From: a virus
Direction: 5' to 3' (one strand)
DNA length: 36,007 nt
Virus genome (UHGV): UHGV-0135626
Shown here: piece by piece, positions 14,948 to 35,631 of the stretch
How the letters are laid out: each line of letters begins with the position of its first letter
Numbering within the stretch: the stretch's first letter is position 1
Notes under the pieces: generated by a model
What the model was told of the DNA's origin: nothing
Seen by the model: the letters and a program-made list of their open reading frames with translations, nothing else
The model's database searches: none
Made by a program: the position numbers and the translations under genes

Positions 14948-14956
14948 CTCAATTGG

Positions 14957-15768: not shown

Positions 15769-15782
15769 TCAGTAATTAAGCA

Positions 15783-15810: not shown

Positions 15811-15823
15811 AGGATTTTAACCA

Positions 15824-16141: not shown

Positions 16142-16221
16142 TTTCCCGCGATGAATCCGGGACAAGGACCGTCTCAATAGATCTCGGATTCTATTTCAGT
16201 CGTGTAGTTGCTCACTACGCC

Positions 16222-16491: not shown

Positions 16492-16498
16492 CAAGGGA

Positions 16499-21058: not shown

Positions 21059-21100
21059 CTATCGACTGCCCCGACCGGGGCAGTCTCACAAGGATGTGAG

Positions 21101-21436: not shown

Positions 21437-21518
21437 GCATCTGGATAAGTAAGTACTAATTTACTATCATTGTGGCGCTGACAGGATGTTAGCGCCTACT
21501 TATTTCAAGGATGAAACA

Positions 21519-22217: not shown

Positions 22218-23007
22218 TAAAGCAATCCCTGAGCTTGGCTCTGACGTTATGCAGCAAATCTATCTCTGCGCCATAAATCGCTACCCTAATGAAGCGTGTG
22301 GCTTTCTGGTTAGAACTAATGGCGACAAATATCGCTTTATGGAAGCGCGGAATGTATCGGAGAACCCGCAGAACACTTTTGTAATGCACGTTGACGACAT
22401 TATAGCGGCAGAGGATGCAGGTGACGTAATTGCAATCTGGCATTCACATACTGATGAATCAGCAGAAGCATCTGATGCCGATCGTGCTGGCTGTGAAGCG
22501 ACGGAAGTTCCGTGGATGATTCTGGCTATTCGCAAGAATGTTGAGGGAGATGCCCCTTTCCATTTTAGCGAGATGAATGTGATCACACCTGATGGTTTCG
22601 AAATGCCATACCTGGGCAGACCGTATATATTTGGCGTATTCGATTGCTGGATGTTGTGTCGGGACTATCTGAAGCGTGAGTTTAACGTCGAGCTTAACCC
22701 GAACGCACACCTGCATATCCCATCATGGTACACCGGCGATAACGACATTCTCGACAAGAACTACCGAAACGAAGGATTGGTACGGCTTGCGCCCGGAACA
22801 GAGCCTCAACGTGGGGACGTCTTCTTTATCCAATACGGAAAAATGCCCGATCACTGCGCGGTTTATATCGGCGATGGAATGATTCTTCATCACCAAATCG
22901 ACCGTCTTAGTTGTCGTGCTTATTACGGCGGAATGTATCAGAAACATACGACGCATCACTTGCGTCACAGAGACTTGCTCAAGGGAGATGAGACGTGTCT
23001 GAGTTAG
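22210..23007 (+). CDS. Tail assembly protein (lambda gpK-like) with JAB/MPN and NlpC/P60-like regions
   Basis: JAMM metalloprotease motif HSHTDESAEASD (H-x-H-x7-S-x2-D); downstream Cys and His residues consistent with an NlpC/P60 domain. Start at ATG 22210 (SD GGAG 9 nt upstream) preferred over the track start 22183. Confidence 0.75.
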   Translation: MGNKAIPELGSDVMQQIYLCAINRYPNEACGFLVRTNGDKYRFMEARNVSENPQNTFVMHVDDIIAAEDAGDVIAIWHSHTDESAEASDADRAGCEATEVPWMILAIRKNVEGDAPFHFSEMNVITPDGFEMPYLGRPYIFGVFDCWMLCRDYLKREFNVELNPNAHLHIPSWYTGDNDILDKNYRNEGLVRLAPGTEPQRGDVFFIQYGKMPDHCAVYIGDGMILHHQIDRLSCRAYYGGMYQKHTTHHLRHRDLLKGDETCLS

Positions 23008-23588
23008 TTCATGTGCAGCTTGGTGGCCCTATGGCCAAACATTTTGGCCGCCACTGGCATCTAAAGGTGCGCAATACAAAACAGGCTCTGGATTTAATTG
23101 AGGCCAACAAGCCAGGGTTTAAAGCATGGATGAAGCGCAACATCAAAACCTATGACAGATACCACATCCAGATCACCAATAAACAGGGCCACAAGTGGTC
23201 TGTGGACGAGAGTGAATATCAGATGATGGGGCAGTCTGACAACATTGCCAAAATCCGCATTACCCCTGTTCCGCGAGGAAGCGGCGGATCTGCTTTTGGG
23301 TGGTTTCAGACGGTAGTAGGGGCCGCTTTGTTGGTTGTATCGGCGGTAATGATGCCTGCTTTAGCACCTCTCGGTTTGTCACTAATGATGGGCGGCATAT
23401 CACAAATCATATCGCCGCAAGCCACTAACGAAAGTGTGAGACAGGCAGATAACTCGAACTCTTATTATTTCGACGGCCCTCAAAATACAGAAAACCAGGG
23501 CAACCCAGTACAACTTATCTATGGCGAGGAAATTCTGGTTGGCTCACAGGTTGTGAGTTCTTCAATCACGATTGACCAGCTAATGTAA
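22995..23588 (+). CDS. Tail assembly protein (lambda gpI-like)
   Basis: 197 aa, GTG start with SD AGGGAG 7 nt upstream, overlapping the K-like stop. Hydrophobic middle segment; position between the K-like and J-like genes. Confidence 0.65.
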   Translation: MSELVHVQLGGPMAKHFGRHWHLKVRNTKQALDLIEANKPGFKAWMKRNIKTYDRYHIQITNKQGHKWSVDESEYQMMGQSDNIAKIRITPVPRGSGGSAFGWFQTVVGAALLVVSAVMMPALAPLGLSLMMGGISQIISPQATNESVRQADNSNSYYFDGPQNTENQGNPVQLIYGEEILVGSQVVSSSITIDQLM

Positions 23589-23605
23589 ACAAGGATTTTT
23601 TGAAC

Positions 23606-26600
23606 ATGGAACAGTTCAAGAAGAAAAAGCTACCGCTGTTTATTGCCGGTGCGGGTGGTAAAAAAAGCAGCAAAAGCTCCAGCCGTACACCGGTTGAAGC
23701 CGACGATACCGTAAATTCTCGTGCAATGGCCGCTATCCTCGATCTTCTTGGGGAAGGGGTAATTGGCGGTTTAGTAAATGGCGCAAGATCTATTTTTATC
23801 GACGATCTGCCGATTGTAAATGAAGACGGTTCCTCCAACTTCAGCGGAATCACATGGGATTTTCGCGACGGTTCGCAAGACCAGACTCCAATGTCTGGCT
23901 TTGATTTCGTTGAAACGCCTAAATCCGTCAATATCCAGTTAAAAAAAACACATTATGTAACGGTTTCAATCGATAACGATGAAGCTGATCGGGTTCGTGT
24001 CATCATAAAGTTTCCTTCTTTGCGAAGCATAGATAAAAAAACTGGTGACACGAACGGTACAACCGTTGAGTACAAGTTCCAGATAGCAAATGGCGACTCA
24101 ACATTTGTAGATGTGGTCGCAGAAGGTGAAAAAAGCGTTGGCATTAAGTTAACAGCAAAGAAGACAGGTGTTTATTACCGTAGCTATGAGCTGAAGCTGC
24201 CTAAGCCTGGACGCGCATACAAGGTTCGTGTAGTCCGTATTACCGATGATAACAGCAGCCAGTATCTCTATAACGATACATGGGTGGATTCAATAGGTGA
24301 GATTGTCGATACACCGATGAACTACCCAAACTCTGTGCTGGTGGGGTTGAAGGTTAATTCTGAGCAGTTCGGCAGCACTATGCCTTCTCGCTCTTATCTG
24401 GTGCGTGGCCTAAAAATTCGTGTGCCATCAAACTATAACGAATCCAGTAACACTTACGTTGGAGTATGGGACGGTACGTTTAAGCTGCTGTCTTCATCCA
24501 ATCCAGCCTGGATTCTTTTCGACCTGTTAACGAATGAACGATATGGGCTTGGCCAATTTGTATCAGAGTCCATGATTGACCTCGGCCAGCTGTACCAGAT
24601 CGGTCGATATTGTGACGAAGAGGTTGATGATGGCTTTGGTGGCAAAGAGAAACGTTTTGCAATCAATACGCAGATTACCAGTCGACAGGACGCATACCGA
24701 CTAATTCAGGATATTGCTGGAGCATTCCGCGGCATGGTGTTTTGGGCTGGTGGCATGGTTAACATCATGCAGGATAGCCCGTCAGATCCGGTAATGATGT
24801 TTACCAACTCTAACGTCAAAGATGGATTGTTTACCTATAAAGGTTCTGCGCGTAAAGATCGCCCATCCGTTGCGCTCGTAACCTACAACAACAAGGAGGA
24901 CGGTTATAAGCAAAACATCGAGTACGTTGAAGATCAGGACGCAATGCGCCGTTATGGTGAGCGTAAGACAGAAGTCGTAGCATTTGGCTGTACAAGCCGA
25001 GGCCAGGCCCACCGAGTTGGTTTATGGCTTTTGTATACAGCCAGAATGGAGTCGGATGTAATTACATTTACTGCCGGCTTAGATGCGTCATTCCTGATGC
25101 CTGGTGAAACCGTTCTGATTCAGAACAAATATCGCGCAGGCAAACGTAACTCAGGTCGAATTGTGGCGTTTACCAAAAACAGCGTCACACTCGATGCGCC
25201 TGTGTCGTTAGCCAAAGGCGGCTGCTTTATTCGAATACTGAATCAGGAAGGCAAAATCGTTGAACGCGATGTTCTTGAAACTGGCGAAAATATAACAAAA
25301 GTTACGTTTTCAAAAGCCCTGTCTTCGGCTGAAACGCCTGTTTTGAACGGCGTCTGGACTATTACAGAACCAGACCTCGAACCTATGCGCGTTCGCATTG
25401 TTAACATAGCACAGGGGGAAACGCCGGGTAGCTTTGACATCACCGCTGTTGAGAACAATCCGTCTAAATATGAGGCGATCGACAATGGTGCAACGCTTAT
25501 CCCGCAGAATACGACGGTATTGGACCCGACTTATTCCAAGCCGTCTAATTTGCAAATCACTGAAGGGACTTATCTCTCAAGCCCTGGCAACCTGTCAGTA
25601 AAACTGACTGCAACATGGGAAGGGAAATCTCCAGAGTATTGGATCAGTTGGCGACGTTCTGATGAAAACAATGTATCGAACTGGCAATCGGCGCGTGTAA
25701 CCGAAGAGCAATACGAAATCGTTAATGTTGCGGAGAATGGACGCTACGACTTCCAGCTGTATGCGGTTTCATTCAACGGTAAAAAAACAGAGATTATCAG
25801 TACCGTTTATCAGGTGCTGGGCACAATGACACCGCCAGATGCCCCAACGTCATTAACGGCCGTTGGAGACTATCGTAATGTGATACTGAATTGGGTTAAT
25901 CCAGATTCGGTAGACCTTGATCACATTAATGTTTACGCATCCCAGACCAACAATCTGGATACAGCGAAACTGATCGCAGAGTCTGCAAGCACCACCTTTA
26001 CACATGCTGGTCTTGGGGATAGCGAAACGTGGTATTACTGGGTTCGTGCGTCAAACAAGCGCGGTATGTTGAGTCCTCCGAACTCAAACTTGGGTACAGA
26101 GGCGACGACTCGCGATGTGCTGTCGTTCCTGACAGGCAAAATTACGTCTTCTGAACTTGGCCAGACTTTACTTGAGGAAATCGACTCAAAAGTATCTCAG
26201 GAGGCGGTGGATTCCATCTATCAACAGATGGAAGAAAGTCTGAAAATCCTCGATGACAAATTTACAGATGCCGATCAGCGGCTTGAAGAAGCTCAAAACA
26301 ATCTTAAAACGGAAGTTTCCGGTACTGTCAGCAAGGTGGAAGACGCGCTTAAGGAGGTTGCAAACTCTAACGCTGCCTTAATTCAGTTGCAGGAAACTGT
26401 ATCAGAGCAGGGTAAAGCTGTAGCTGGAGCTGTTGAGGCGGCAAATGCAGCACTTGACAATTCATCGGCTTTAATTGCGGAGGAGCGTGAAGCACGAGTT
26501 GAGGGTGACTTGGCAAACGCGAAAGAAATCGAGGCGATGAAGTCAACTGTAGATAGCAGTTTAGCCACCATTGAAGAAATGAAAAAAACCGTGGCTGAAG

Positions 26601-27766
26601 TTGAACGTTCTAGTGCCGAAGTTACGACAAACATTGAGGCATTGGCTAAAACAAACATCGATCTTGCTTTGCGTCAGGATGAAGATCAGCACAAGCAGAT
26701 GGTGAGTAATGCGAAGATCACCACAACTCAGAAGGCTTTTGCAGACGATATATCTGCAATGGCTACGAAAATGGAGGAAATTCGCGCTGAAATAAATGAG
26801 GATATCAGAGCTTCAATCACTGAAGAAACAACGGCTCGTGTAGATGCTGATAATGCTATTGCAAGCAGAATCACCAAACTTGAATCAAAGATTAACGATG
26901 ATATTTCTGCCGCAATTGTGAGTGAACAAGAGGCACGAGCTAGTGCCGATGAAGCACTTTCAAAAGAAATACTATCGTTACAAGCCAAAATTGAAGGCGA
27001 TATTAGTGCAGCTATATCTGAAGAAAAAATTGCCCGAGCAACTGCTGATGAATCTTTAGCACAACAGATAACCACATTGAAGAGCCAGACGGGTAAAGAT
27101 ATTAAGGCGGCTGTAGCAGAAGAGACGAAAGCCAGAACTGACGCTGATTCGGCTTTGGCTTCTAGTATCACTAATCTACAGGCGCAAACGAGCAAAGATA
27201 TTAATGCCGCGATTACGTCTGAGGCAACTGTGCGCACAAACGCCGACAATGCTCTAAGTGGACGAATTGACACCTTAAAAGCATCAGTTGATGGAAATAC
27301 AGCGACAATTCAAGAGCAGGCAACTGCTATTGCTGATACTAACAAAAAGGTTTCAACCGCGTGGACGTTGAAGATGGAAACGTCAACAAGTGGTGGGCAA
27401 AAATATGTCGCAGGTATTGCGCTTGGAATTGACACCACGGGGCTTTCCCAGTTTTTGGTGCAAGCAGATCGATTTGGTCTAGTTAACTCAGTTAACGGAA
27501 AGATCACCACACCATTTGTTATCGAAAACAGCGTTGCATACATGAATGGTGCGTATATTAAGGATGGTACTATCACAAATGCAAAGGTAGGTGACTTGCA
27601 ATCAACAAACTTCGTAAGCGGACGAGTCGGATGGCGATTTGGTAAAAATGGAACGCTTGAGATCAACGGCAATAGTGGCGGCAATGGGAGATTGGTTATA
27701 AATGGTCAGAGGATTGACGTTTATGATGACAATAATGTCCTTCGAGTGAGGATTGGTCAGCTTTGA
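23606..27766 (+). CDS. Host specificity protein / central tail fibre (lambda gpJ-like)
   Basis: About 1386 aa, the largest tail gene after the L/K/I-like genes; fibronectin-III-like segments and a C-terminal repeat region. Start at ATG 23606 (SD AAGGA); the track ORF starts with TTG at 23600. Confidence 0.85.
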   Translation: MEQFKKKKLPLFIAGAGGKKSSKSSSRTPVEADDTVNSRAMAAILDLLGEGVIGGLVNGARSIFIDDLPIVNEDGSSNFSGITWDFRDGSQDQTPMSGFDFVETPKSVNIQLKKTHYVTVSIDNDEADRVRVIIKFPSLRSIDKKTGDTNGTTVEYKFQIANGDSTFVDVVAEGEKSVGIKLTAKKTGVYYRSYELKLPKPGRAYKVRVVRITDDNSSQYLYNDTWVDSIGEIVDTPMNYPNSVLVGLKVNSEQFGSTMPSRSYLVRGLKIRVPSNYNESSNTYVGVWDGTFKLLSSSNPAWILFDLLTNERYGLGQFVSESMIDLGQLYQIGRYCDEEVDDGFGGKEKRFAINTQITSRQDAYRLIQDIAGAFRGMVFWAGGMVNIMQDSPSDPVMMFTNSNVKDGLFTYKGSARKDRPSVALVTYNNKEDGYKQNIEYVEDQDAMRRYGERKTEVVAFGCTSRGQAHRVGLWLLYTARMESDVITFTAGLDASFLMPGETVLIQNKYRAGKRNSGRIVAFTKNSVTLDAPVSLAKGGCFIRILNQEGKIVERDVLETGENITKVTFSKALSSAETPVLNGVWTITEPDLEPMRVRIVNIAQGETPGSFDITAVENNPSKYEAIDNGATLIPQNTTVLDPTYSKPSNLQITEGTYLSSPGNLSVKLTATWEGKSPEYWISWRRSDENNVSNWQSARVTEEQYEIVNVAENGRYDFQLYAVSFNGKKTEIISTVYQVLGTMTPPDAPTSLTAVGDYRNVILNWVNPDSVDLDHINVYASQTNNLDTAKLIAESASTTFTHAGLGDSETWYYWVRASNKRGMLSPPNSNLGTEATTRDVLSFLTGKITSSELGQTLLEEIDSKVSQEAVDSIYQQMEESLKILDDKFTDADQRLEEAQNNLKTEVSGTVSKVEDALKEVANSNAALIQLQETVSEQGKAVAGAVEAANAALDNSSALIAEEREARVEGDLANAKEIEAMKSTVDSSLATIEEMKKTVAEVERSSAEVTTNIEALAKTNIDLALRQDEDQHKQMVSNAKITTTQKAFADDISAMATKMEEIRAEINEDIRASITEETTARVDADNAIASRITKLESKINDDISAAIVSEQEARASADEALSKEILSLQAKIEGDISAAISEEKIARATADESLAQQITTLKSQTGKDIKAAVAEETKARTDADSALASSITNLQAQTSKDINAAITSEATVRTNADNALSGRIDTLKASVDGNTATIQEQATAIADTNKKVSTAWTLKMETSTSGGQKYVAGIALGIDTTGLSQFLVQADRFGLVNSVNGKITTPFVIENSVAYMNGAYIKDGTITNAKVGDLQSTNFVSGRVGWRFGKNGTLEINGNSGGNGRLVINGQRIDVYDDNNVLRVRIGQL
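26700..27340 (+). repeat. In-frame tandem coding repeats (about 28-aa units) within the J-like gene
   Basis: Six to seven successive units of the form D/E-I-x-A-A-I-x-x-E-x-x-A-R-x-x-A-D-x-A-L-x-x-x-I-x-x-L; the boundaries are approximate. Confidence 0.6.
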
Positions 27767-27859
27767 TTGTGGAAAAAAATAATCATTTCTGTAAAAATAG
27801 GTAGGTACTAACTTAATGGTGGGCATGGAACGCCCACCATATCTAGGAGCAAAGGATAA

Positions 27860-30205
27860 ATGTGGTACAGGGAAGGTACAATAAATCTCACTAAAGGAAA
27901 TAAAACTGTAGTGGGAACAGGCACAGCCTGGGGAGTGACGGCGAACGGCGTCCTTCCAGGTATGATATTGATTGGCCCCGATAATAAGTTATATGAAATA
28001 AAATCAATCGAGAGTGACACTTCGTTAACTCTTGTTGAAGCCTACGGTGGTAGCACCCAAACAAATGTCCCGTGCAGAATAATTACGACCTATGAAGGTG
28101 ATTTAACCCAATTTAGTGCTCGTTTTACTGCGCTTATGTCTCGCATGTCAGCCGATTCAAAAATGATGCGTAGTTGGTTGACTGCCGTGGATGAAATAAC
28201 AATTGAGCGTGAAGATGGCACGGAATTAACCGTAAAATCCCTTACGCAGATCGTTAATGAGCACAATGAGAACCTAGAATGGTATAAAGAAAATACTCCC
28301 ATAATTAACACCGCTGCACAAAAAGCTAAAGAGGCGGCAGCGAGCGCAACAGCGGCCAAAAAATCAGAAACTAACTCAAAAGCGAGTGAGACAGCTTCAA
28401 AGACTAGCGAAACTAATGCGAAAAATAGCGAGGTAGCTGCAAAATCGAGTCAGAGTGCTGCCGCAAACTCCGCTACCGCAGCAAAAAACAGCCAGGATGC
28501 AGCAGCCGAAAGCGAGAGTGCTGCAGCTGGTTCTGCGACTTCAGCAGCTGGATCAGCAACTGCTGCGGCTAACAGCCAGAAAGCTGCGAAGACGAGTGAA
28601 ACTAACGCAAAGTCCAGCCAGACGGCAGCAAAGACCAGCGAAACGAATGCCAAAGCCAGCGAAACTGCGGCGAAAAGCAGTCAGGATGCAGCAGCCGAAA
28701 GCGAGAGTGCTGCAGCCGGTTCTGCAACAGCGGCAGCTAATAGCCAAAAAGCTGCAAAAACCAGTGAAACTAACGCAAAGGCGAGCGAAACAAAAGCAGC
28801 AGCCAGCGAGACAGAAGCAACGTCAGCCGCAACAAGAGCAGAGAATGCAGCCAGGATTGCAGAAGATGCCGCTGATCCTGCTTCTGTCCCTCCGCTTCCT
28901 GATATCTGGCTACCCTTGAATGATTCTCTGGAAGCGATAACAGGGTATGCGCCGGGGTATAAAACAATAACCATCGGCAGCGATGAAATCACTGTGCCAG
29001 TTAATGGCATATGCCAATTTAGCCGGGCTTCATCTGCAACGTATATTGATAAGTCCGGGCATATTACCGTGGCAGGGAATAACGTTCCTCGTTTTGAAAA
29101 ATATGGTTTGCTGATAGAGAATCAGCGAACAAACATGTTCGTAAATAGTTTTAATCCTGATGCGTGGAATAAAAGCGGTGGTATATCTGTAACATCATCA
29201 ACAGATGAATTTGAGTTTAAATATGGACGTTTCACAGTAGGAAGCGACATAGCAGGAACGACAACAGGGAGAAATATATGCACAGTTGCTGGTAATAGAG
29301 GCATAGATGTGACTGGCGATGATCAGTACAGTAAAGGTCCGTATGTTACCGCGTCGTTCAGGGTAAGAAGTGATCTCAATGTTCGCGCACGTATCCGTTT
29401 TGAACGGTATAACTCGGAAGGATACACTTTCCTTTGTGACGCCTATTTGTCATTACAGACCCATGAACTACAAATTACGGGTGATAATGCCCAGCTATTA
29501 ACAGCAAACTTTGAAATCGATCCAGGTAGTGGATGGATATATTTTCAGGCAACCCTGAAATGTCTGCCAGAATGGGGAATGGTTGGTACGCAGTTGCAAA
29601 TTGCAGCCGACAGAGCTGTGGGGTCTTTTGCAACAGGTGACTGGATAGAAGTAACCACCCCGCAATTTGAGTATGGTGCTTGTGCAACTTCCTTTATCAT
29701 AACGACAACAGAGCCAGCTACTCGTGCATCAGATTTATGTAAATTTCCGCTGATGAAAAATATGTATACCATGCCTTTTACGTTCATGGTGGAAGTCCAT
29801 AAAAACTGGTTTATTTCTCATAATGCTGCACCGCGAGTAATTGATACAGAAAACCATCAGTCAGGTGCTCCATTTATCATGGGATTTGGCTCTTCTGGAA
29901 CTATCAGTCAGGACGGTTATCCCTATTGTGATATAGGCGGGGCTAACCGACGTGTATATGAGTCATGCGGAGTAAGAGATCTCGTTATGGGATTCAGGGT
30001 TAAGGCTGACGGCATGACATGCTCATTTGCAAATAAGCATATAAGCACAGAAACAAAAACAGTATGGAAATATATTCGTGAAGCTGCTGTGATTCGTATC
30101 GGGGGACAAACGACGACAGGATTACGACACCTTAATGGACATATAAAAAACCTCCGTTTCTGGAACAGAGCATTGTCAGATACGCAGCTTAAGGAATACG
30201 TATAA
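27860..30205 (+). CDS. Tail fibre protein with Ala/Ser/Glu/Thr-rich repeat shaft
   Basis: 781 aa: conserved N-terminus, low-complexity repeat region, then a Gly/Tyr/Trp-rich C-terminal domain with lower GC, as expected for a receptor-binding domain. Confidence 0.75.
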   Translation: MWYREGTINLTKGNKTVVGTGTAWGVTANGVLPGMILIGPDNKLYEIKSIESDTSLTLVEAYGGSTQTNVPCRIITTYEGDLTQFSARFTALMSRMSADSKMMRSWLTAVDEITIEREDGTELTVKSLTQIVNEHNENLEWYKENTPIINTAAQKAKEAAASATAAKKSETNSKASETASKTSETNAKNSEVAAKSSQSAAANSATAAKNSQDAAAESESAAAGSATSAAGSATAAANSQKAAKTSETNAKSSQTAAKTSETNAKASETAAKSSQDAAAESESAAAGSATAAANSQKAAKTSETNAKASETKAAASETEATSAATRAENAARIAEDAADPASVPPLPDIWLPLNDSLEAITGYAPGYKTITIGSDEITVPVNGICQFSRASSATYIDKSGHITVAGNNVPRFEKYGLLIENQRTNMFVNSFNPDAWNKSGGISVTSSTDEFEFKYGRFTVGSDIAGTTTGRNICTVAGNRGIDVTGDDQYSKGPYVTASFRVRSDLNVRARIRFERYNSEGYTFLCDAYLSLQTHELQITGDNAQLLTANFEIDPGSGWIYFQATLKCLPEWGMVGTQLQIAADRAVGSFATGDWIEVTTPQFEYGACATSFIITTTEPATRASDLCKFPLMKNMYTMPFTFMVEVHKNWFISHNAAPRVIDTENHQSGAPFIMGFGSSGTISQDGYPYCDIGGANRRVYESCGVRDLVMGFRVKADGMTCSFANKHISTETKTVWKYIREAAVIRIGGQTTTGLRHLNGHIKNLRFWNRALSDTQLKEYV
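28330..28870 (+). repeat. Imperfect tandem DNA repeats encoding the fibre shaft
   Basis: Near-identical segments recur about 190 bp apart, e.g. CAGGATGCAGCAGCCGAAAGCGAGAGTGCTGCAGC at 28492 and 28682, and AGTGAAACTAACGCAAAG at about 28588 and 28759. Confidence 0.7.
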
Positions 30206-30474
30206 TGCGGGATATAACATTACGATTCGATAACAGAGAACAGTTTAACGCAATTGTATATGACAGTGGCCTGTTCAGTCTTGAAGAAGAAAATGGGGTT
30301 CTTGTTGATGTTATTGGCTGCATTATTGATTACGAGGAGCCAGAAAACGAAAGATGTACAGGCATTGATCGCGGTGGTTTTTTCGTAAACATGAGGATTG
30401 TTGATAGCAGTAAAAACATATCTTCTTTAATGCCTTTCATTACGACAGATCAGCATGTAAGGACATGGGCTTAA
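30205..30474 (+). CDS. Hypothetical protein in the fibre cassette (possible fibre assembly or adaptor protein)
   Basis: 89-aa ORF with TAATG overlap with the fibre gene stop and SD AAGGAA. AT-rich; no motif recognised. Confidence 0.45.
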   Translation: MRDITLRFDNREQFNAIVYDSGLFSLEEENGVLVDVIGCIIDYEEPENERCTGIDRGGFFVNMRIVDSSKNISSLMPFITTDQHVRTWA

Positions 30475-30486
30475 TGGAGTAAGACA

Positions 30487-31527
30487 ATGGTTACAAAAAC
30501 AGTAATTCCTGATGACATCAAAACGCTAAAATCGGATGTTAGTAAATTAAAAACCGATCAAGGAAACTACGCAACAAAATCTTATGTAGACAATAAAACA
30601 ACATGGAATGGTTATTGCAATTTAATCTATGATCAAAAAACATTGCCAACAACTGGAACTATATTCAGCGGTAAGCTGCATTTGTCAAATAAGACTGGTG
30701 AAACGGAAAACGCTTATAGTGACATATATACCAGAAAAAATATTGATGGTACTAAAGATACAATGACGAGGATCGTCACACATAACGGGACAAAAGGTAT
30801 CTTTTGGGACTTTAGTGATCTTAACGGAGGAACTTTAATTTTTCCAGGCAGTGGTGGTTATCTTAAGATGGGGAACTGCCTCATGTCGTATGGTGTGCGG
30901 GGAAGTAACGCGCTTATTAAGTTTGATTACACCGACACATTACAGATCAAATATGCCAATCATGGGTCAACCATGACATTAAACACACAGGGAACCGCTT
31001 ATGCTGGTGTTACTGCTCAATTGTGGGGCAACTCCAGTCGTCCAGTTGTTTATGAAATTAGGGATGATGGCGGGCTTTTTTTGTTTTATGCACAAAGGAA
31101 CCCAGATAAAACCTATCAGCTTGAGATAAACGGGCCATGCAAGGCTACATCATTCGACCAGGTGTCGGACAGAGATCTTAAAGAAAACATTCAGGTTATT
31201 GATAATGCCACTGAGCGCATCAGATTAATGAATGGGTATACTTACCGTCTCAAGTCTAATGGTATGCCTTATGCTGGCGTTATTGCGCAAGAGGCACTTA
31301 ATGCAATCCCTGAATCAGTTGGTAGCACAATAAAGTACAAGAGCGGGGACAATGGGTCTGATGGAGAAGAGGGAGAAAGATACTATACCGTCGATTACTC
31401 AGGCGTAACGGGTTTGCTTGTTCAGGTAGCCAGAGAGTCAGACGACAGGATAACAGCACTGGAAGAAGAAAACGCAGAATTAAGACAAAGATTATCTGCA
31501 ATTGAGGCGGCGCTTGCGTCTAAATAA
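30487..31527 (+). CDS. Tail fibre protein with C-terminal intramolecular chaperone (peptidase S74-type) domain
   Basis: 346 aa, SD GGAG 7 nt upstream. Residues 227-234 SDRDLKEN match the autoproteolysis site of endosialidase/T5-type fibre chaperone domains; a terminal helical segment (EEENAELRQRLSAIEAALASK) follows. Confidence 0.75.
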   Translation: MVTKTVIPDDIKTLKSDVSKLKTDQGNYATKSYVDNKTTWNGYCNLIYDQKTLPTTGTIFSGKLHLSNKTGETENAYSDIYTRKNIDGTKDTMTRIVTHNGTKGIFWDFSDLNGGTLIFPGSGGYLKMGNCLMSYGVRGSNALIKFDYTDTLQIKYANHGSTMTLNTQGTAYAGVTAQLWGNSSRPVVYEIRDDGGLFLFYAQRNPDKTYQLEINGPCKATSFDQVSDRDLKENIQVIDNATERIRLMNGYTYRLKSNGMPYAGVIAQEALNAIPESVGSTIKYKSGDNGSDGEEGERYYTVDYSGVTGLLVQVARESDDRITALEEENAELRQRLSAIEAALASK

Positions 31528-31533
31528 TATCAA

Positions 31534-31556
31534 GGGGCCGAGCGCCCCGTTTTATT
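31534..31556 (+). terminator. Rho-independent terminator after the fibre gene
   Basis: GGGGC-cgagc-GCCCC followed by GTTTTATT. Confidence 0.65.
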
Positions 31557-31569
31557 GGGTAGGATGAAA

Positions 31570-31854
31570 ATGGATATAACACCTTTCCTTCATGCGCTTT
31601 GTGCTGTGGCTGCGCAGCTACTGATTGGTCTTTTTACCGGGAACTGGGTTTACGGGGCGATAGCCGGTTGTACGTTCTTCATTGCGCGTGAACACACCCA
31701 GGCAGAATATCGCTGGATTGAAATGTTCGGGCATGGCAAGCGTATGAATATGCCGTGGTGGGGCGGTTTTGATCCGCGCGCTTGGGATGTAGCAAGCCTG
31801 ATGGATTTTGCGATTCCACTTTTAGCGTGCACATTATTATATATTTTTATTTAA
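31570..31854 (+). CDS. Small membrane protein with two predicted transmembrane helices (holin, moron or exclusion protein)
   Basis: About 94 aa from ATG 31570 (SD AGGA 5 nt upstream); hydrophobic segments AVAAQLLIGLFTGNWVYGAIAGCTFFIA and ASLMDFAIPLLACTLLYIFI. Lies between a terminator and an AT-rich promoter region. Confidence 0.45.
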   Translation: MDITPFLHALCAVAAQLLIGLFTGNWVYGAIAGCTFFIAREHTQAEYRWIEMFGHGKRMNMPWWGGFDPRAWDVASLMDFAIPLLACTLLYIFI

Positions 31855-31946
31855 TATAAGATTAACTGAGATATAGCTTACGCAAAGAAGGTAATAAATA
31901 TAAAGAGAGATGTTCTGAGGTAATTTATTGTTGGTGTTTAAGGTTA

Positions 31947-31976
31947 TTTACAGATAGGTAAGTGCATACCTATATA
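31947..31976 (+). promoter_or_regulatory. Candidate sigma70-type promoter with an embedded operator palindrome
   Basis: -35-like TTTACA (31947-31952), 18-bp spacer, -10-like TATATA (31971-31976). The spacer holds the perfect inverted repeat ATAGGTA-agtgca-TACCTAT (31954-31973). Confidence 0.45.
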
Positions 31977-32035
31977 AAAAAGATAAAATGTGATATAAAT
32001 CCGCCATCCCGATTTGACTTTTCATGGAGGAAAAT

Positions 32036-32359
32036 ATGTCGAACGAGATGGCGGGCGTAACAACAGAGCAAGTTGAGCGCATTGCCGCGATCGTTGCTCG
32101 GGAGGTTGTCGGCAAATTAGGTAAAGAGCTACGTGAAGAAATTGGCCAGGAGGTCAACGATCAGCTGAAAACCTACTTTGGTGATATGACCCCGGCGCAA
32201 CATAGTATTCAACACTCCAACCTGGACAAACTCCTTAACCGGTTAGATTCCATCTCCAGTGGGTTCTTTGGCGGCATTGTTTCTAAAATAACGTCGTTCA
32301 TTATTACCGCACTGCTTTTGGGGTTAGCCGCGTATGGCGTGAAAAATGGACTGCAATAA
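32036..32359 (+). CDS. Small protein with one C-terminal transmembrane helix (holin or antiholin candidate)
   Basis: Start at ATG 32036 with SD GGAGG 5 nt upstream (track ORF starts 32024). C-terminal hydrophobic segment ITSFIITALLLGLAAYGV; directly upstream of the putative endolysin. Confidence 0.45.
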   Translation: MSNEMAGVTTEQVERIAAIVAREVVGKLGKELREEIGQEVNDQLKTYFGDMTPAQHSIQHSNLDKLLNRLDSISSGFFGGIVSKITSFIITALLLGLAAYGVKNGLQ

Positions 32360-32372
32360 CAGGAGATCAAGG

Positions 32373-33065
32373 ATGAAGACTCCGAGAGGCATTCGTAACA
32401 ATAACCCCGGTAATCTTGATAAAGGATCGCCGTGGCAAGGTCTGGTTGCTAATCCAGACGAACCCCGCTTTTGCACGTTTAAAGACCCTGTTTGGGGGAT
32501 TCGTGCGCTGGCGGTGACTCTAATTACCTACCACGACAAACGTCGCGCAAAAGACGGCTCAAGTATCGATACCATTCGTGAAGTTATTGAACGCTGGGCA
32601 CCGCCGAACGAAAATAACACTGACGCCTATATTAATGAGGTGTCCAAAGCAGTTGGTGTAACCGCAGACATGATTATCGATCTGCATGATTACGACATCC
32701 TTCGACCTTTAGTTGAGGCAATCATTCGCCACGAGAATGGCCGAGGCCCGCTAAAAACGCTGAACACCTGGTATGCGGCAGAAGTTATTGAGGAAGGTCT
32801 GCGTCGAGCTGGCGTCGTTAAGCCGGTGAAAACGGTGAAGGCTGTTCCTGTAACGAAAGAAACCGCAGGCGCAACTGTTACAGCAGGTATTGGTCTGGCG
32901 CAGCTTGCCGATGTTATGCCGCAGATTTCCGCTGCTATGGATAAAGCACAAGGTCATATCTCTAGCGGGGATACAGTACGCATCATCTTCGGTATTGCCA
33001 CTATTGTTGTGGCAGGATTCATTGCCTGGTCGCAGGTAAGAAAACACCAGAAAGGGATGGTCTAA
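32373..33065 (+). CDS. Putative endolysin / cell-wall hydrolase with C-terminal transmembrane anchor
   Basis: Start at ATG 32373 (MKTPRGIRNNNPGNL) with SD AGGAG 7 nt upstream. Function inferred from position directly before Rz/Rz1; C-terminal hydrophobic segment IIFGIATIVVAGFIAW. No catalytic motif confidently recognised. Confidence 0.4.
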   Translation: MKTPRGIRNNNPGNLDKGSPWQGLVANPDEPRFCTFKDPVWGIRALAVTLITYHDKRRAKDGSSIDTIREVIERWAPPNENNTDAYINEVSKAVGVTADMIIDLHDYDILRPLVEAIIRHENGRGPLKTLNTWYAAEVIEEGLRRAGVVKPVKTVKAVPVTKETAGATVTAGIGLAQLADVMPQISAAMDKAQGHISSGDTVRIIFGIATIVVAGFIAWSQVRKHQKGMV

Positions 33066-33066
33066 T

Positions 33067-33318
33067 ATGCTAGGCAGCCTGATGACAAAGCTAAAAGTTG
33101 CTTTGATTATGCTGGCTGCCGTTCTTTTCGTTCTTGTCGGCGCTTACACGATGGGCGGAAATGCGGCGCGACGAGCAATGGAAGAGAAGGCAAAACAGGA
33201 AGACAGAAAACGACTTCAAAACACAGTGAAAGTGGTGAATGAGACGAGCAGTAAAATACGTCAGAAAGATGCTTCTGCCGTTCATCGTGAGTTGTATGAT
33301 AAGTGGGTGCGTCATTAA
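33067..33318 (+). CDS. Rz: Inner-membrane spanin (Rz-like)
   Basis: 83 aa with N-terminal transmembrane segment (LKVALIMLAAVLFVLVGAY) and a charged helical periplasmic part; a lipoprotein gene is embedded in the +1 frame. Confidence 0.65.
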   Translation: MLGSLMTKLKVALIMLAAVLFVLVGAYTMGGNAARRAMEEKAKQEDRKRLQNTVKVVNETSSKIRQKDASAVHRELYDKWVRH

Positions 33319-33454
33319 ACCACAAACAGCCAGCGTGTTGTTCTGCGATGGGGCTGAGCCTATCTATATCAGCAATAATGATGTAATGACTGAAGAAACC
33401 GAACGCCAAATCCTTTTTCACAATACGATGGGAGAGAGGGTTTGTGGTTGGTGA
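33239..33454 (+). CDS. Rz1: Outer-membrane lipoprotein spanin (Rz1-like), overlapping Rz in another frame
   Basis: 71-aa ORF starting inside the Rz gene and running past its stop. Lipoprotein signal with lipobox ISGC (MRRAVKYVRKMLLPFIVSCMISG|C); short mature peptide. Confidence 0.6.
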   Translation: MRRAVKYVRKMLLPFIVSCMISGCVIKPQTASVLFCDGAEPIYISNNDVMTEETERQILFHNTMGERVCGW

Positions 33455-33461
33455 TGTCGAA

Positions 33462-33483
33462 GTTCCCCTCAAATGAGGGGAAC
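33462..33483. terminator. Stem-loop between convergent genes; candidate bidirectional terminator
   Basis: GTTCCCCTC-aaat-GAGGGGAAC, a 9-bp stem between the Rz1 stop (33454) and the minus-strand toxin stop (33487). Confidence 0.55.
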
Positions 33484-33486
33484 ACA

Positions 33487-34008
33487 TTATTCTTCGAACA
33501 ATTTTTCGATAGATTTTGTAGGATAGAACAAAGAACGCTCGTTGTTACCAACCAGCTGGATAAAGCCTAAACTTTTATAAAACGCCTTGGCTTTGTCATT
33601 TAACGCCTCAACGAAAAGTCCATGAATGCCTACAGCAAGAGATGCATTGTACACAACGCGCATTGCATGTGTTACAAGCATTGAGCCAAATCCTTGACCT
33701 TGAAGGGACTTGTCCAAAGCCAGCCTACCCAAAGTAACACTTGGAACATTCCGATAAGGAACCTTCTTTTGTTTGCTTCTTGAAGGTAAGGACTCCTTTT
33801 CAAAACAACTACCTGACAAAGTGTAATATCCTAACACTTTTGGCCTTTCTTCTTGAGTGCAAAGCACATAAGCACGAAGAATTTTTCCCTCATGCTGCCT
33901 TTTTAAGTGGTTGGCTAAAAAGGCGTTTAGTGACTCTTCGCCGCAATCAAAACCGTTTAGATCATAATCTTTCTCTCCAGAGAAAATCTCTATCGTTGTA
34001 TTGCTCAC
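33487..34008 (-). CDS. GNAT-family acetyltransferase toxin of a type II toxin-antitoxin pair (TacT/AtaT/KacT-like)
   Basis: 173 aa; GNAT motifs (QGQGFGSMLVTHAM acyl-CoA loop, AKAFYKSLGF). Immediately downstream of, and co-oriented with, a DUF1778-type antitoxin gene. Confidence 0.8.
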   Translation of the reverse strand: MSNTTIEIFSGEKDYDLNGFDCGEESLNAFLANHLKRQHEGKILRAYVLCTQEERPKVLGYYTLSGSCFEKESLPSRSKQKKVPYRNVPSVTLGRLALDKSLQGQGFGSMLVTHAMRVVYNASLAVGIHGLFVEALNDKAKAFYKSLGFIQLVGNNERSLFYPTKSIEKLFEE

Positions 34009-34015
34009 GAGTAAA

Positions 34016-34285
34016 CTACTCCATGCTTTTCAGACGATCAGCAGCTCGTTTCAGCTTGTCGTTCGGTGCCGGAGGATTGCTTATAGCGTCCATAACCAGA
34101 TTCCAGGATTCTTCATTCAGAACTAGTCTACGGTGTTGCTCTATAACTTTCACGGCACGTTCAGATGCACTGCTAACCATAAACTGAGTAATGCTCTGGT
34201 TAGACATTGCGGCAGCTTCCTCGATGATGCTTTTATCGTCATCGGTTAATCTCAAATCGATGCGCTGCTTTTTTAGTGCTGACAT
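34016..34285 (-). CDS. DUF1778-type (RHH) antitoxin, TacA/AtaR-like
   Basis: Start at ATG 34285 (MSALKKQRIDLRLTDDDKSIIEEAA), preceded by a perfect SD AGGAGG with 5-nt spacer, giving 89 aa. The track ORF extends to a TTG at 34324. Confidence 0.8.
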   Translation of the reverse strand: MSALKKQRIDLRLTDDDKSIIEEAAAMSNQSITQFMVSSASERAVKVIEQHRRLVLNEESWNLVMDAISNPPAPNDKLKRAADRLKSME

Positions 34286-34324
34286 GTATTCCTCCTGATG
34301 GCCGTGATGTAGGAAGGCCATCAA

Positions 34325-34603
34325 TCTCCTCTGTTCAAACTGAGTTTTCGACTCAAAAATTACTTTAAAAGGCTATAGCCCATTACGTGTGCATTATCAA
34401 ATTGTGTACGGCATATCACCGTACTTGTAATATAGAGGTCATTGTTACTTTTTTCAACAGACAAATACAAGCTATGATTGCCAATTGTTAACCACAACCT
34501 ACCATTTAACCTTTACACCGCAGCCGTAGGCATTTAGGCTATATCACATATAAGAAAACAAGTTGTTTCAGACGATAATTATATACGCAAAGGGAACTCT
34601 CCA
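34325..34603. promoter_or_regulatory. Divergent control region between the toxin-antitoxin operon and parA; candidate operators or centromere
   Basis: 279-bp non-coding gap holding palindrome GGCTATAGCC (34371-34380), inverted repeat GTACGG-N7-CCGTAC (34406-34424) and near-palindrome AAACAAgTTGTTT (34556-34568) about 35 bp before parA. Confidence 0.45.
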
Positions 34604-35272
34604 ATGACCAAGATCTTTGTGGTTGGCGGCACAAAGGGCGGGCCTGGCAAATCCACCGTTGCCCAGCAAATTGCCGTTTGCCTGAAAGTCAAAAAGAAGA
34701 AGAAGGTTTATATTACCGATATAGATATTCAGCGCACGACAACGAGCTGGTGTGAAGACCGTCGACAGAACGAAGACCTTGAGCTGATTCCTTTTGCATA
34801 CGTTCAGGATGACATCATTAAGCACCTAAAATCGCTTCAGGGTAGAGCTGAGTTTGTAGTGGTAGATGCTGGTGGCTTCGACTCCGAAATTCAGCGACAA
34901 GCGATGCTGATGGCTGACGTTATCATTATCCCGCTGCGTCCTAAGCGTCGTGATTTGAAATCTTTACGTGACATCGATCCTATTATCGACAATGTTCGCA
35001 ATGTAAACGATAAAGTGAAGGTCCGCGCGGTCATGAACCAGTGCCCGGCTTTGCCATCACAAGTGTCTCGCATTCTGGCGGCTAAAGAGATTGTTGAGAC
35101 GTTTGGAATCGAGTCTGCGCCAGTCAATCTATATAACCGCAACGTCTATGATGATGCGGAAGAGTCTGGTCGTTCTATCTTTGAAATGACCGGTAGCGAG
35201 CGCGACAAAAAGGCGGAAGCCGAGTTTGAAGAATTTGTAGATTATCTGTTGAGTCTGGAGGAAGAAGAATAA
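34604..35272 (+). CDS. parA: ParA-family partition ATPase (small type Ib form)
   Basis: 222 aa with deviant Walker A GGTKGGPGKST at the N-terminus and no N-terminal HTH extension. SD AAAGGGAA; TAATG overlap with the next gene. Confidence 0.85.
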   Translation: MTKIFVVGGTKGGPGKSTVAQQIAVCLKVKKKKKVYITDIDIQRTTTSWCEDRRQNEDLELIPFAYVQDDIIKHLKSLQGRAEFVVVDAGGFDSEIQRQAMLMADVIIIPLRPKRRDLKSLRDIDPIIDNVRNVNDKVKVRAVMNQCPALPSQVSRILAAKEIVETFGIESAPVNLYNRNVYDDAEESGRSIFEMTGSERDKKAEAEFEEFVDYLLSLEEEE

Positions 35273-35631
35273 TGTCCATGAAAATGGGTGACCTAGCAAA
35301 GCGCAAAGAGCCTGATGCACCGGCTAAGAACACAACTCCTTTGCGCCAACCAGTCAGACCACAAGGACGCCCGACTCGTGGCAAAGAGAAAATTAAAAGC
35401 CGCACTATGTCACTGGAAGACGAATACTTCGAGCTTCTGGAAATGATGAAGTTTATCCCTCGTTTCGAGAAGTTCACCCGCTCTGATGTGATTCGTGCTG
35501 CTATTTTCCATCTGGCAGAGAAGTCACCGCAGGAAATCGAGGACATCGTAAAGCTGAACGAGGCGATCACAGCTGCCGATGTCACGATGCGTACCGATGA
35601 AATTAAACGCGAGTTGATGAAGAAAGGTTAA
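35272..35631 (+). CDS. Small RHH-type centromere-binding partition protein (ParG-like)
   Basis: 119 aa, translationally coupled to parA. Basic, probably disordered N-terminus and a C-terminal ribbon-helix-helix-like region. Confidence 0.65.
   Translation: MSMKMGDLAKRKEPDAPAKNTTPLRQPVRPQGRPTRGKEKIKSRTMSLEDEYFELLEMMKFIPRFEKFTRSDVIRAAIFHLAEKSPQEIEDIVKLNEAITAADVTMRTDEIKRELMKKG

What the first reader, a model, noticed from the sequence alone, without database searches (positions are those of the whole stretch)
34325..34603. Divergent control region rich in palindromes between the toxin-antitoxin and partition operons
Three distinct dyad elements lie in the 279-bp gap: GGCTATAGCC, GTACGG-N7-CCGTAC and AAACAAgTTGTTT. 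Type Ib centromeres and antitoxin operators both sit upstream of their operons, so this region probably combines partition-site and autoregulatory sites.
Basis: partly seen in the sequence, partly recalled or inferred. Interest (0 to 1): 0.45.

Follow-up and report, generated by a model that had tools for sequence, protein, structure and literature searches.

The report
Mosaic toxin-antitoxin and partition promoter region
The gap holds two unrelated back-to-back promoter modules of an SSU5-type phage-plasmid: one dyad is the known operator of the KacA/AtaR antitoxin family, another is one copy of a repeated promoter motif found all over these genomes rather than a partition site, and the third has no detectable function.

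Summary
All three dyads are present: GGCTATAGCC at 34371-34380, GTACGG-N7-CCGTAC at 34406-34424 and AAACAAgTTGTTT at 34556-34568. Palindrome density in the gap is not above chance.

The gap is a mosaic. The part from 34286 to about 34496 belongs to a kacAT/ataRT-like cargo cassette. The part from 34497 to 34603 is the conserved leader of a ParF-like parA operon.

- **GTACGG-N7-CCGTAC:** it has the same half-sites and spacing as the DNA crystallised with KacA. It lies just downstream of a conserved minus-strand promoter. The antitoxin keeps R8, D10 and R12. This is the antitoxin operator.
- **AAACAAgTTGTTT:** it is not specific to the partition operon. It is one copy of AGAAAACAAnTTGTTT. There are 3 copies in the window and 16 in the related phage Cyrano, against 0 expected. 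Most sit 10-12 nt after a -10-like hexamer. The motif is also kept in Yersinia pMT1, which lacks this partition system. It is probably the operator of an unidentified global regulator.
- **GGCTATAGCC:** it lies in the hypervariable antitoxin leader and is not conserved.

No centromere was found. The best candidate is the block 34497-34552, which is 97% conserved where parA third codon positions are 50-62% identical. The RHH fold of the 119-aa partner protein is unconfirmed.

The parts
33487..34008 (-). GNAT toxin gene (KacT/AtaT-like)
   Evidence: Pfam GNAT acetyltransferase families. Annotated as KacT-type toxin in phage Cyrano. About 66% DNA identity to E. coli ataT.
34016..34285 (-). Antitoxin gene (KacA/AtaR family, TacA1/DUF1778). 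The start is ATG 34285, not TTG 34324.
   Evidence: PF08681 E=5.7e-26. KacA 5ZGN E=6.6e-42 and AtaR E=1.3e-40, aligned from residue 1 with R8, D10 and R12 kept.
34290..34323 (-). Shine-Dalgarno site GGAGGA (34295..34290) directly preceded in the mRNA by the hairpin TGATGGCC-N12-GGCCATCA (34296-34323)
   Evidence: Inverted repeat I10. Hairpin in the MFE and centroid folds. A hairpin of different sequence at the same place in every long-leader cassette variant and in an F-like plasmid homologue.
34371..34380 (.). It lies in the predicted antitoxin mRNA leader; no function is supported.
   Evidence: Present only in window-type and L007-type cassettes and replaced by unrelated sequence in three other variants. 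Within chance expectation. Part of a 2-copy 14-nt similarity with 34536-34549.
34406..34424 (.). GTACGG-N7-CCGTAC: KacA/AtaR-type antitoxin operator over the predicted transcription start of the toxin-antitoxin operon
   Evidence: Identical half-sites and spacing to the 5ZGN operator oligo. Same site at ataRT and in an F-like plasmid homologue. Half-sites invariant and spacer sequence free across 5 cassette variants. Only exact match in the 36-kb window.
34429..34457 (-). Predicted toxin-antitoxin promoter: -35 TTGAAA (34457..34452), 17 bp, -10 TATATT (34434..34429)
   Evidence: Best promoter-like site in the scan, 10 of 12. Both hexamers conserved across 5 divergent cassette variants while the flanks vary.
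34497..34571 (+). Conserved par leader block. Homology with SSU5, PhiR41_1 and pJN2-26, which lack the toxin-antitoxin cassette, begins here.
   Evidence: Alignments. 73 of 75 positions identical to SSU5 and to pJN2-26, while parA third codon positions are 62% and 50% identical.
34512..34540 (+). Predicted parA promoter: -35 TTTACA (34512-34517), 17 bp, -10 TAGGCT (34535-34540). A TAGGC direct repeat lies at 34527-34531 and 34535-39.
   Evidence: Hexamers kept in all clades: TTGTCA or TTGTCG with TAGGCT, and TTGACC-17-TACCAT in L089. Spacer nearly invariant within the clade. L088 also has two TAGGC 8 bp apart, shifted by one unit. This is an inference with no experimental start site.
34553..34568 (+). 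AGAAAACAAGTTGTTT: one copy of the genome-wide motif.
   Evidence: Repeat family D5. 16 copies at 1 mismatch or fewer in Cyrano against 0 simulated. Fixed position after -10-like hexamers. Core ATAAGAAAACA invariant upstream of parA in all 8 relatives aligned.
5988..6028 (+). Two further copies of the same motif (5988-6003 and 6013-6028) upstream of the small-terminase-like gene (ATG at 6069)
   Evidence: Homologous copies in Cyrano, pMT1 and a K. ozaenae plasmid.
34590..35272 (+). parA Shine-Dalgarno site (AAGGGA, 34590-34595) and parA (34604-35272): a small Walker-type ParF-like ATPase
   Evidence: Pfam MipZ, AAA_31 and CbiA. ParF of TP228 (4dzz) E=1.2e-10. NCBIfam ParA_partition E=1.9e-33, below the curated cut-off.
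35272..35631 (+). 119-aa partner ORF, the presumed centromere-binding protein. The RHH fold is not confirmed.

Best explanation
The gap is a junction between two independent promoter modules in an SSU5/pHCM2-type phage-plasmid.

**Left module (34286 to about 34496).** This is the control region of a kacAT/ataRT-like toxin-antitoxin cassette inserted in a cargo slot between the lysis genes and the par operon. A sigma-70-type promoter on the minus strand (-35 at 34457..52, -10 at 34434..29) starts transcription inside GTACGG-N7-CCGTAC. By homology, two antitoxin RHH dimers within an antitoxin4-toxin2 complex bind this dyad. They repress the operon in a way that depends on the toxin:antitoxin ratio. 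A leader of about 135 nt follows. It contains GGCTATAGCC, which is probably incidental, and ends in a hairpin that abuts the ribosome-binding site.

**Right module (34497-34603).** This is the leader of a ParF-like type Ib parA operon. It has a weak promoter (TTTACA-17-TAGGCT) followed at about +6 to +21 by AGAAAACAAGTTGTTT. That sequence is one copy of a dyad-containing motif placed just downstream of, or sometimes over, many promoters throughout SSU5-supergroup genomes. Examples are the promoters of the terminase, DnaB helicase, RNR and cobT genes and of many small genes. The motif most likely binds an unidentified global repressor encoded by the element, so par expression is tied to the element's general gene control.

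**Centromere.** It is not identified. The extra constraint on 34497-34552, including the TAGGC repeat over the -10, makes that stretch the best candidate for binding of the 119-aa par protein, as autoregulatory operator, centromere or both.

**Status of the steps.** Shown: the sequence matches, the copy numbers, the conservation and the mosaic structure. Inferred: the transcription start sites, all protein binding, and the identity of the regulator.
For: **Mosaic structure.**
- Homology with SSU5, Klebsiella phages and PhiR41_1 starts at query position 1094-1104, that is window position about 34493-34503.
- Those genomes carry other cargo or a terminator immediately upstream of the same block.
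- Five different kacAT-like cassette variants abut the same block.

**Antitoxin operator.**
- The 5ZGN operator oligo is AAATGTACGGTTATTAACCGTACATGA, and the paper states that the palindrome spans the kacAT transcription start (PMC6698736).
- The antitoxin matches KacA at E=6.6e-42, with an identical N-terminal strand that keeps R8, D10 and R12.
- The same dyad lies upstream of ataR and of a plasmid homologue.
- The half-sites, the 7-bp spacing, the -10 and the -35 are invariant across variants, while the spacer sequence and the leader vary.

**Global motif.**
- There are 3 copies in the window.
- Cyrano has 7, 16 and 29 hits at 0, 1 and 2 mismatches. Markov simulations give 0, 0 and 0.7. Thirteen of the 16 are in gene orientation.
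- The anchored alignment shows GATAAT-like hexamers 10-11 nt upstream and start codons 10-50 nt downstream. Three reverse-oriented copies lie over -35 regions.
- In all four divergent loci examined (L085, L088, L089 and L091), both the parA and the DnaB promoters carry the motif.
- pMT1 has no homologue of this ParA or of the 119-aa protein, yet keeps 6 copies at homologous promoters with diverged flanks.

**par block.** It is 97% identical where parA third codon positions are 50-62% identical.
Against: - No transcription start, footprint or expression data exist for this element; both promoters are predictions. The par -10 (TAGGCT) matches the consensus at only 3 of 6 positions.
- The regulator that binds the global motif is not identified. 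A repressor that silences lytic genes would also be expected to lower par expression in the plasmid state, which is awkward.
- pMT1 is closely related to pHCM2-type elements, so part of its motif retention could reflect recent common ancestry rather than selection.
- The strong conservation of 34497-34552 could have causes other than binding of the par protein.
- An array of many repeats, typical of type Ib centromeres, is absent.
Confidence: 0.7

Rival explanations
1. One reading: the gap is an integrated control region in which the dyads, especially AAACAAgTTGTTT and/or GGCTATAGCC, are centromere and operator sites bound by the par RHH protein, alongside the antitoxin operator.
For: Type Ib systems such as TP228 parFGH have the centromere and operator upstream of the ATPase gene (PMC3130281). 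ParA is ParF-like. The par leader is far more conserved than neutral sites. AGGCTATAGCCCAT and AGGCTATATCACAT are a 14-nt similarity linking dyad 1 to the par -10 region.
Against: Dyad 3 belongs to a family of 16 or more copies at unrelated promoters, and the motif persists in pMT1 without this par system. Dyad 1 lies in cassette DNA that is absent from most relatives with the same par operon, and it is not conserved among cassette variants. There is no iterated array.
Confidence: 0.1
2. The 119-aa par protein is itself the global regulator, in the manner of omega of pSM19035 or KorB of RK2. It would bind AGAAAACAAnTTGTTT at about 20 promoters, and the dispersed sites would double as centromeres, as with the scattered SopB sites of phage-plasmid N15.
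For: The motif core is invariant upstream of parA in every clade, including Moellerella. The candidate DNA-reading segment IKSRTMS-EDE of the 119-aa family is likewise invariant. The omega, KorB and N15 precedents are from my own knowledge and were not checked here.
Against: pMT1 lacks the protein (tblastn E of 0.7 or worse) but retains 6 motif copies with conserved promoter architecture and diverged flanks. DNA binding and an RHH fold are unproven for the protein.
Confidence: 0.12
3. The motif acts in RNA, not DNA. It would be an element at the 5' end of many mRNAs that is bound by a translational repressor or stability factor, comparable in logic to T4 RegA targets.
For: Thirteen of 16 copies are in gene orientation. 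They lie within the predicted 5' untranslated regions, 10-50 nt before the start codons.
Against: The RNA hairpins are negligible, at -0.2 to -1.8 kcal/mol for the window copies and no better than shuffles. Arm variants are not compensated. Three copies are reverse-oriented and lie over -35 regions with no gene on that strand.
Confidence: 0.08

Closest known systems
kacAT operator of Klebsiella pneumoniae (PDB 5ZGN) and ataRT operator of E. coli O157:H7 (PDB 6GTS)
   Same: The GTACGG-N7-CCGTAC dyad is at the operon's own promoter. The antitoxin is 76-80% identical and keeps R8, D10 and R12. The partner toxin is a GNAT.
   Different: The spacer sequence differs (CATATCA). The dyad lies about 120 bp from the start codon, behind a long hypervariable leader, against about 30 bp in ataRT. 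The cassette is cargo on a phage-plasmid.
parFGH of plasmid TP228 (type Ib partition; the parH centromere and OF operator upstream of parF)
   Same: It has a small ParF-like ATPase (E=1.2e-10) followed by a small coupled partner gene. Strongly constrained DNA lies immediately upstream and overlaps the promoter.
   Different: TP228 has 20 ACTC tetramer boxes with 4-bp AT-rich spacers over about 160 bp (PMC3130281). Here there are only about 55 bp upstream of the -10 and at most a 2-copy TAGGC repeat. The partner is 119 aa, has no detectable similarity to ParG, and has an unconfirmed fold.
Dispersed operators of global regulators on mobile elements: KorB OB sites of RK2, C1 operators of phage-plasmid P1, omega sites of pSM19035 (from my own knowledge, not checked here)
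   Same: A short conserved site is repeated at many promoters across one element, overlapping the transcription start or the -35. The par operon is among the targets.
   Different: The sequence AGAAAACAAnTTGTTT matches none of those operators, and the binding protein is unknown. Nothing shows that the sites act as centromeres; pMT1 argues against a link to this par system.

Membership tests
KacA/AtaR (TacA1, DUF1778) antitoxin operator | Inverted repeat GTACGG-N7-CCGTAC, as in the DNA co-crystallised with KacA-KacT | tested here: met
   34406-34424 is GTACGGcatatcaCCGTAC. The 5ZGN oligo is AAATGTACGGTTATTAACCGTACATGA. It is the only exact match in the window.
KacA/AtaR (TacA1, DUF1778) antitoxin operator | An adjacent cognate antitoxin with the DNA-reading residues R8, D10 and R12 | tested here: met
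   MSALKKQRIDLRL... aligns to KacA from residue 1, E=6.6e-42. PF08681 E=5.7e-26.
KacA/AtaR (TacA1, DUF1778) antitoxin operator | The dyad overlaps the transcription start of the toxin-antitoxin operon | tested here: inconclusive
   The predicted -10 at 34434..34429 puts the start at about 34422, inside the dyad. The promoter hexamers are conserved across 5 variants. No experimental start site exists.
KacA/AtaR (TacA1, DUF1778) antitoxin operator | Binding by the antitoxin or the toxin-antitoxin complex, and autorepression | not testable with these tools
   Needs EMSA, footprinting or a reporter assay.
Type Ib partition locus with an upstream centromere (parH/parS type) | A small Walker-type ParA without an N-terminal DNA-binding domain | tested here: met
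   222 aa. ParF of TP228 E=1.2e-10. NCBIfam ParA_partition E=1.9e-33, 115.7 bits, below the curated cut-off of 180.
Type Ib partition locus with an upstream centromere (parH/parS type) | A small RHH centromere-binding partner | tested here: inconclusive
Type Ib partition locus with an upstream centromere (parH/parS type) | An array of several iterated short repeats next to the operon | tested here: not met
   No repeat family beyond 2-copy matches in 34200-34700. No TAGGC or AGGC clusters anywhere in the window or in Cyrano. The downstream region is not conserved among relatives.
Type Ib partition locus with an upstream centromere (parH/parS type) | The fragment stabilises a plasmid in cis when the par proteins are supplied | not testable with these tools
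   Needs a segregational stability assay.
Dispersed operator of an element-wide regulator | Many copies far above chance, located at promoters | tested here: met
   16 copies at 1 mismatch or fewer in Cyrano against 0 in simulations. Intergenic, 10-12 nt after -10-like hexamers or over -35 regions. Conserved at the parA and DnaB promoters in four divergent loci (L085, L088, L089, L091).
Dispersed operator of an element-wide regulator | An identified cognate DNA-binding protein | not tested
   No candidate was singled out. Ten genes that follow motif copies have no DNA-binding Pfam domain.

The most novel reading that the evidence does not exclude
AGAAAACAAnTTGTTT marks an undescribed regulon that spans SSU5-supergroup phage-plasmids, including pHCM2-type elements and Yersinia pestis pMT1. 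A single unidentified regulator would bind at about +6 to +21, or over the -35, of some 20 promoters. It would thereby couple plasmid partition gene expression to phage replication, nucleotide metabolism and packaging genes. In the most ambitious version, the dispersed sites also contribute to plasmid positioning.
Probability: 0.5. Interest if true: 0.55.

Novelty: new member of a known kind. Interest (0 to 1): 0.38.

Why it matters
SSU5/pHCM2/pMT1-type phage-plasmids are common in clinical Enterobacteriaceae and carry resistance and virulence cargo. How they balance plasmid maintenance against the phage programme is hardly known.

The antitoxin operator is routine. Three other points are useful.
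- The slot next to the par leader is a recurrent insertion site for toxin-antitoxin and other cargo.
- The par promoter belongs to a genome-wide set of promoters that share one operator-like motif. This gives a concrete handle for finding the master regulator of these elements, through oligo pull-down or ChIP.
- The centromere of this ParF-like system with an orphan partner protein is still unlocated. The search is now narrowed to about 55 bp.

Tried and rejected
1. **Statistical enrichment of palindromes in the gap.** Not significant.

2. **Confirming the RHH fold of the 119-aa protein.**
- Pfam, PDB sequence and PDB profile searches gave nothing.
- hhalign against a KacA-family alignment was negative.
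- An exhaustive HMMER search found only 18 cluster representatives, all in a narrow family.

3. **A TP228-like tetramer-box reading of the par leader** (ACC boxes at 34501, 34509 and 34517; AGGC boxes at 34528 and 34536). The boxes carry too little information. They are not kept in the L085, L089 and L091 loci even though the candidate recognition segment of the protein is invariant there. No clusters occur elsewhere. I kept this only as a lead.

4. **The alternative par promoter TTGCCA-16-TACCAT (34478-34505) from the scan.** Rejected, because its -35 lies in cassette DNA that is absent from relatives.

5. **A known RNA family in the gap.** None found.

6. **An overall fold of the antitoxin leader RNA.** Not better than shuffles, z = -1.35.

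7. **An RNA hairpin at the global motif.** Negligible.

8. **Literature on the motif or on a pHCM2/SSU5 centromere.** Nothing found.

9. **Regulator candidates among genes that follow motif copies.** No DNA-binding domains.

10. **Blastn extension of toxin-antitoxin homology into the upstream region of ataRT or the F-like plasmid homologue.** Homology stops at the start codon. The operators were found by eye.

Full report
**Context**

The window is part of an SSU5/pHCM2-type phage-plasmid. The 2.3-kb stretch around the finding is 97-99% identical to Escherichia phage Cyrano and to more than 140 plasmids of about 110 kb, mostly from E. coli. The parA half alone matches Salmonella phage SSU5 and Klebsiella phage-plasmids at 80-86%.

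Gene content around the gap is as follows:
- lysis genes, ending with Rz1 near 33454;
- a GNAT toxin (34008..33487, minus strand);
- a DUF1778/TacA1 antitoxin (minus strand);
- parA (34604-35272);
- a translationally coupled 119-aa ORF (35272-35631).

**The observation**

The three dyads exist: GGCTATAGCC at 34371-34380, GTACGGcatatcaCCGTAC at 34406-34424 and AAACAAgTTGTTT at 34556-34568.

The gap is really 318 bp, from 34286 to 34603. The antitoxin starts at ATG 34285, behind a GGAGGA ribosome-binding site, and aligns from residue 1 with KacA and AtaR. The TTG at 34324 is not the start. The extra 39 bp contain a fourth inverted repeat, TGATGGCC-N12-GGCCATCA.

The number of inverted repeats is not above dinucleotide-shuffle expectation. 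For 6-bp arms the count is 2 against 1.18, reached by 154 of 500 shuffles. For 5-bp arms it is 8 against 4.6, reached by 73 of 500. Each dyad therefore has to be judged on outside evidence.

**The gap is a mosaic**

Nucleotide homology with SSU5, PhiR41_1, pJN2-26 and other Klebsiella elements begins at window position about 34497.
- Those genomes have no toxin-antitoxin cassette.
- Between Rz1 and the same par leader they carry unrelated genes. In SSU5 and PhiR41_1 an intrinsic terminator (AAACCCGCTACGGCGGGTTTTTT) ends a few bases before the block.
- Among 79 IMG/VR relatives, 40 carry a kacAT-like cassette at this slot. These fall into at least five sequence variants, all abutting the same block.

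So 34286 to about 34496 travels with the cassette, and 34497-34603 travels with par. The two predicted promoters stand back to back, with 54 bp between their -35 hexamers, and share no site.

**Dyad 2 is the antitoxin operator**

- The antitoxin matches KacA (PDB 5ZGN) at E=6.6e-42 and AtaR at E=1.3e-40.
- Its N-terminal strand MSALKKQRIDLRL keeps R8, D10 and R12. The KacAT paper shows these residues make or are required for base contacts (PMC6698736).
- The DNA crystallised with KacA-KacT is AAATGTACGGTTATTAACCGTACATGA. The authors state that the palindrome spans the kacAT transcription start.
- The window has the same GTACGG and CCGTAC half-sites at the same 7-bp spacing.
- E. coli O157 ataRT has GTACGGtatgtcaCCGTAC. 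A homologue on an F-like plasmid has GTACGGaaaaataCCGTAC.
- Across five cassette variants next to the par block, four features are invariant: the half-sites, the spacing, a -10 (TATAnT) and a -35 (TTGAAw) on the minus strand. The 7-bp spacer and the rest of the upstream region vary freely.
- The best promoter-like site in the scan is exactly this one: TTGAAA at 34457..52, 17 bp, TATATT at 34434..29. It puts the start near 34422, inside the dyad.

The mechanism is inferred by homology. Two RHH dimers of an antitoxin4-toxin2 complex occupy the two arms and repress with conditional cooperativity.

**Dyad 1 has no support**

GGCTATAGCC lies about 45 nt into the predicted leader of about 135 nt. 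It is present in only two of the five cassette variants. The others have unrelated leaders, one of them with variable numbers of TTTTCAG repeats. A perfect 10-bp palindrome is within chance here. Its 14-nt similarity to 34536-34549 is a two-copy match.

What is conserved in the leader is a stem-loop that ends 0-3 nt before the ribosome-binding site. It is kept with different sequences: TGATGGCC/GGCCATCA, GGCCTC/GAGGCC, CCTCAC/GTGAGG and CTGACC/GGTCAG. It lies at 34296-34323, just outside the finding.

**Dyad 3 is a copy of a genome-wide motif**

*In the window.* The exact 13-mer recurs at 6016-6028, with a one-mismatch copy at 5991-6003. Both lie upstream of the small-terminase-like gene. The shared unit is AGAAAACAAnTTGTTT.

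*In Cyrano.* The complete Cyrano genome has 7, 16 and 29 hits at 0, 1 and 2 mismatches, against 0, 0 and 0.7 in Markov simulations. Thirteen of the 16 are in gene orientation.
- The sites precede the genes for terS, parA, DnaB helicase, RNR beta and cobT, and many small genes.
- Anchored on the motif, a GATAAT-like hexamer lies 10-11 nt upstream, and the start codon lies 10-50 nt downstream.
- Three reverse-oriented copies lie over the -35 regions of plus-strand promoters. One promoter has copies at both positions, 51 bp apart.

*In relatives.*
- Upstream of parA, the core ATAAGAAAACA is invariant in all eight relatives aligned. This includes a Moellerella plasmid whose partner protein is 28% identical.
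- In four divergent loci (L085, L088, L089 and L091), both the parA and the DnaB promoters carry the motif.
- Yersinia pestis pMT1 partitions with a different ParAB pair. It has no homologue of this ParA or of the 119-aa protein (tblastn E of 0.7 or worse). It still keeps six copies at homologous promoters with diverged flanks.

*DNA or RNA.* The motif is therefore not the par system's private site. RNA hairpins at the window copies are negligible. Arm variants are not compensated. The reverse copies over -35 regions also argue for a DNA site. The most economical reading is an operator of an unidentified global regulator. No paper mentioning the motif was found.

**The par leader and the centromere question**

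The promoter TTTACA (34512-17), 17 bp, TAGGCT (34535-40) is conserved across the relatives aligned. Some relatives have TTGTCA or TTGTCG with TAGGCT, and L089 has TTGACC-17-TACCAT. This places the motif at about +6 to +21.

The 75-bp block 34497-34571 is 73/75 identical to SSU5 and to pJN2-26, while parA third codon positions are only 62% and 50% identical. Even the promoter spacer is nearly invariant within that group of relatives. This is more constraint than a promoter plus one operator needs. It suggests further protein binding, possibly by the 119-aa protein. A TAGGC direct repeat 8 bp apart overlaps the -10, and it also occurs, shifted by one unit, in L088.

There is no repeat array of the kind that defines TP228 parH-OF, which has 20 ACTC boxes (PMC3130281). 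No such array is present in the gap or elsewhere in the window or in Cyrano. The region downstream of the 119-aa gene is not conserved. The centromere is therefore unlocated, and 34497-34552 is the best candidate.

**The par proteins**

ParA is ParF-like (4dzz, E=1.2e-10).

The 119-aa protein belongs to a tiny orphan family: phrog_5111, and 18 cluster representatives among 1.84 billion. Its N-terminal MGDLAK, its IKSRTMS-EDE segment and its FTRSDVIRAAI segment are invariant. This pattern is compatible with a flexible tail followed by a ribbon-helix-helix. Every test of the fold was negative or inconclusive. The one exception is a weak hit, below the cut-off, to the aCcr1 family, which I recall as RHH.

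**Verdict**

It is wrong, or at least unsupported, about the partition site.

The region is an ordinary toxin-antitoxin promoter fused by cassette insertion to the leader of a type Ib par operon. The unexpected result is that the par-proximal dyad belongs to a conserved, apparently undescribed promoter-associated motif shared across the SSU5 supergroup.

Noticed in passing
window 5873-6068: The region upstream of the small-terminase-like gene has an AT-rich palindrome of about 60 bp (5895-5955), nested in GGTCTGGG/CCCAGACC arms. Two copies of the global motif follow (5988-6003 and 6013-6028), then a terminator-like hairpin with a T-run (about 6030-6058) just before the ATG at 6069. Position 1 of the linear Cyrano record maps to about window 5935, the centre of the palindrome, so this may be the packaging (cos/pac) site.
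   Followed up: partly
window 34296-34323: The hairpin TGATGGCC-N12-GGCCATCA abuts the antitoxin ribosome-binding site. A hairpin at the same place but of different sequence is present in every long-leader kacAT-like variant and in an F-like plasmid homologue. This suggests an RNA-level role in translation or stability.
   Followed up: partly
window about 33455-34496; loci L002, L003, L004, L007, L049, L072, L079: The slot between Rz1 and the par leader is a cargo hot spot. It holds five sequence variants of kacAT-like cassettes, or unrelated genes, all joined to the same par block at about 34497. One variant (L072 type) has a variable number of TTTTCAG heptamer repeats in the antitoxin leader.
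   Followed up: partly
window 7953-7972, 11376-11395, 21444-21463, 31953-31972: A four-copy repeat family, GATAGGTAAGTAATTATCTA, lies in intergenic spots of the late (structural and lysis) gene block. Its function is unknown.
   Followed up: no
L097 about 47900-47936 and 48385-48421 (Cyrano 97.9 and 98.4 kb); pMT1 L101 about 37400-37950: Many motif-bearing promoters also share TGCCTTAT or GCCTTAT about 10 nt upstream of a GATAAT -10 and lack a good -35. From memory this resembles the position and sequence of the T4 MotA box (TGCTTtA); that was not tested. The par promoter lacks this element.
   Followed up: no
window 1032-1047 (minus strand), inside ORF 1054..776: A motif-like copy, AGAAAACAACTTATTG, lies in codons 3-8 of a conserved 92-aa ORF of unknown function (phrog_1466), whose sequence pattern looks ribbon-helix-helix-like by eye. 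It could be coincidence caused by coding constraint.
   Followed up: no
window 35630-35659: A 13-bp-stem hairpin, AATAATGTGGGCTgtctAGCCCACATTATT, lies immediately after the 119-aa ORF and is flagged as terminator-like on the minus strand. Homology with Cyrano ends here, and a different AT-rich gene follows in the window.
   Followed up: no
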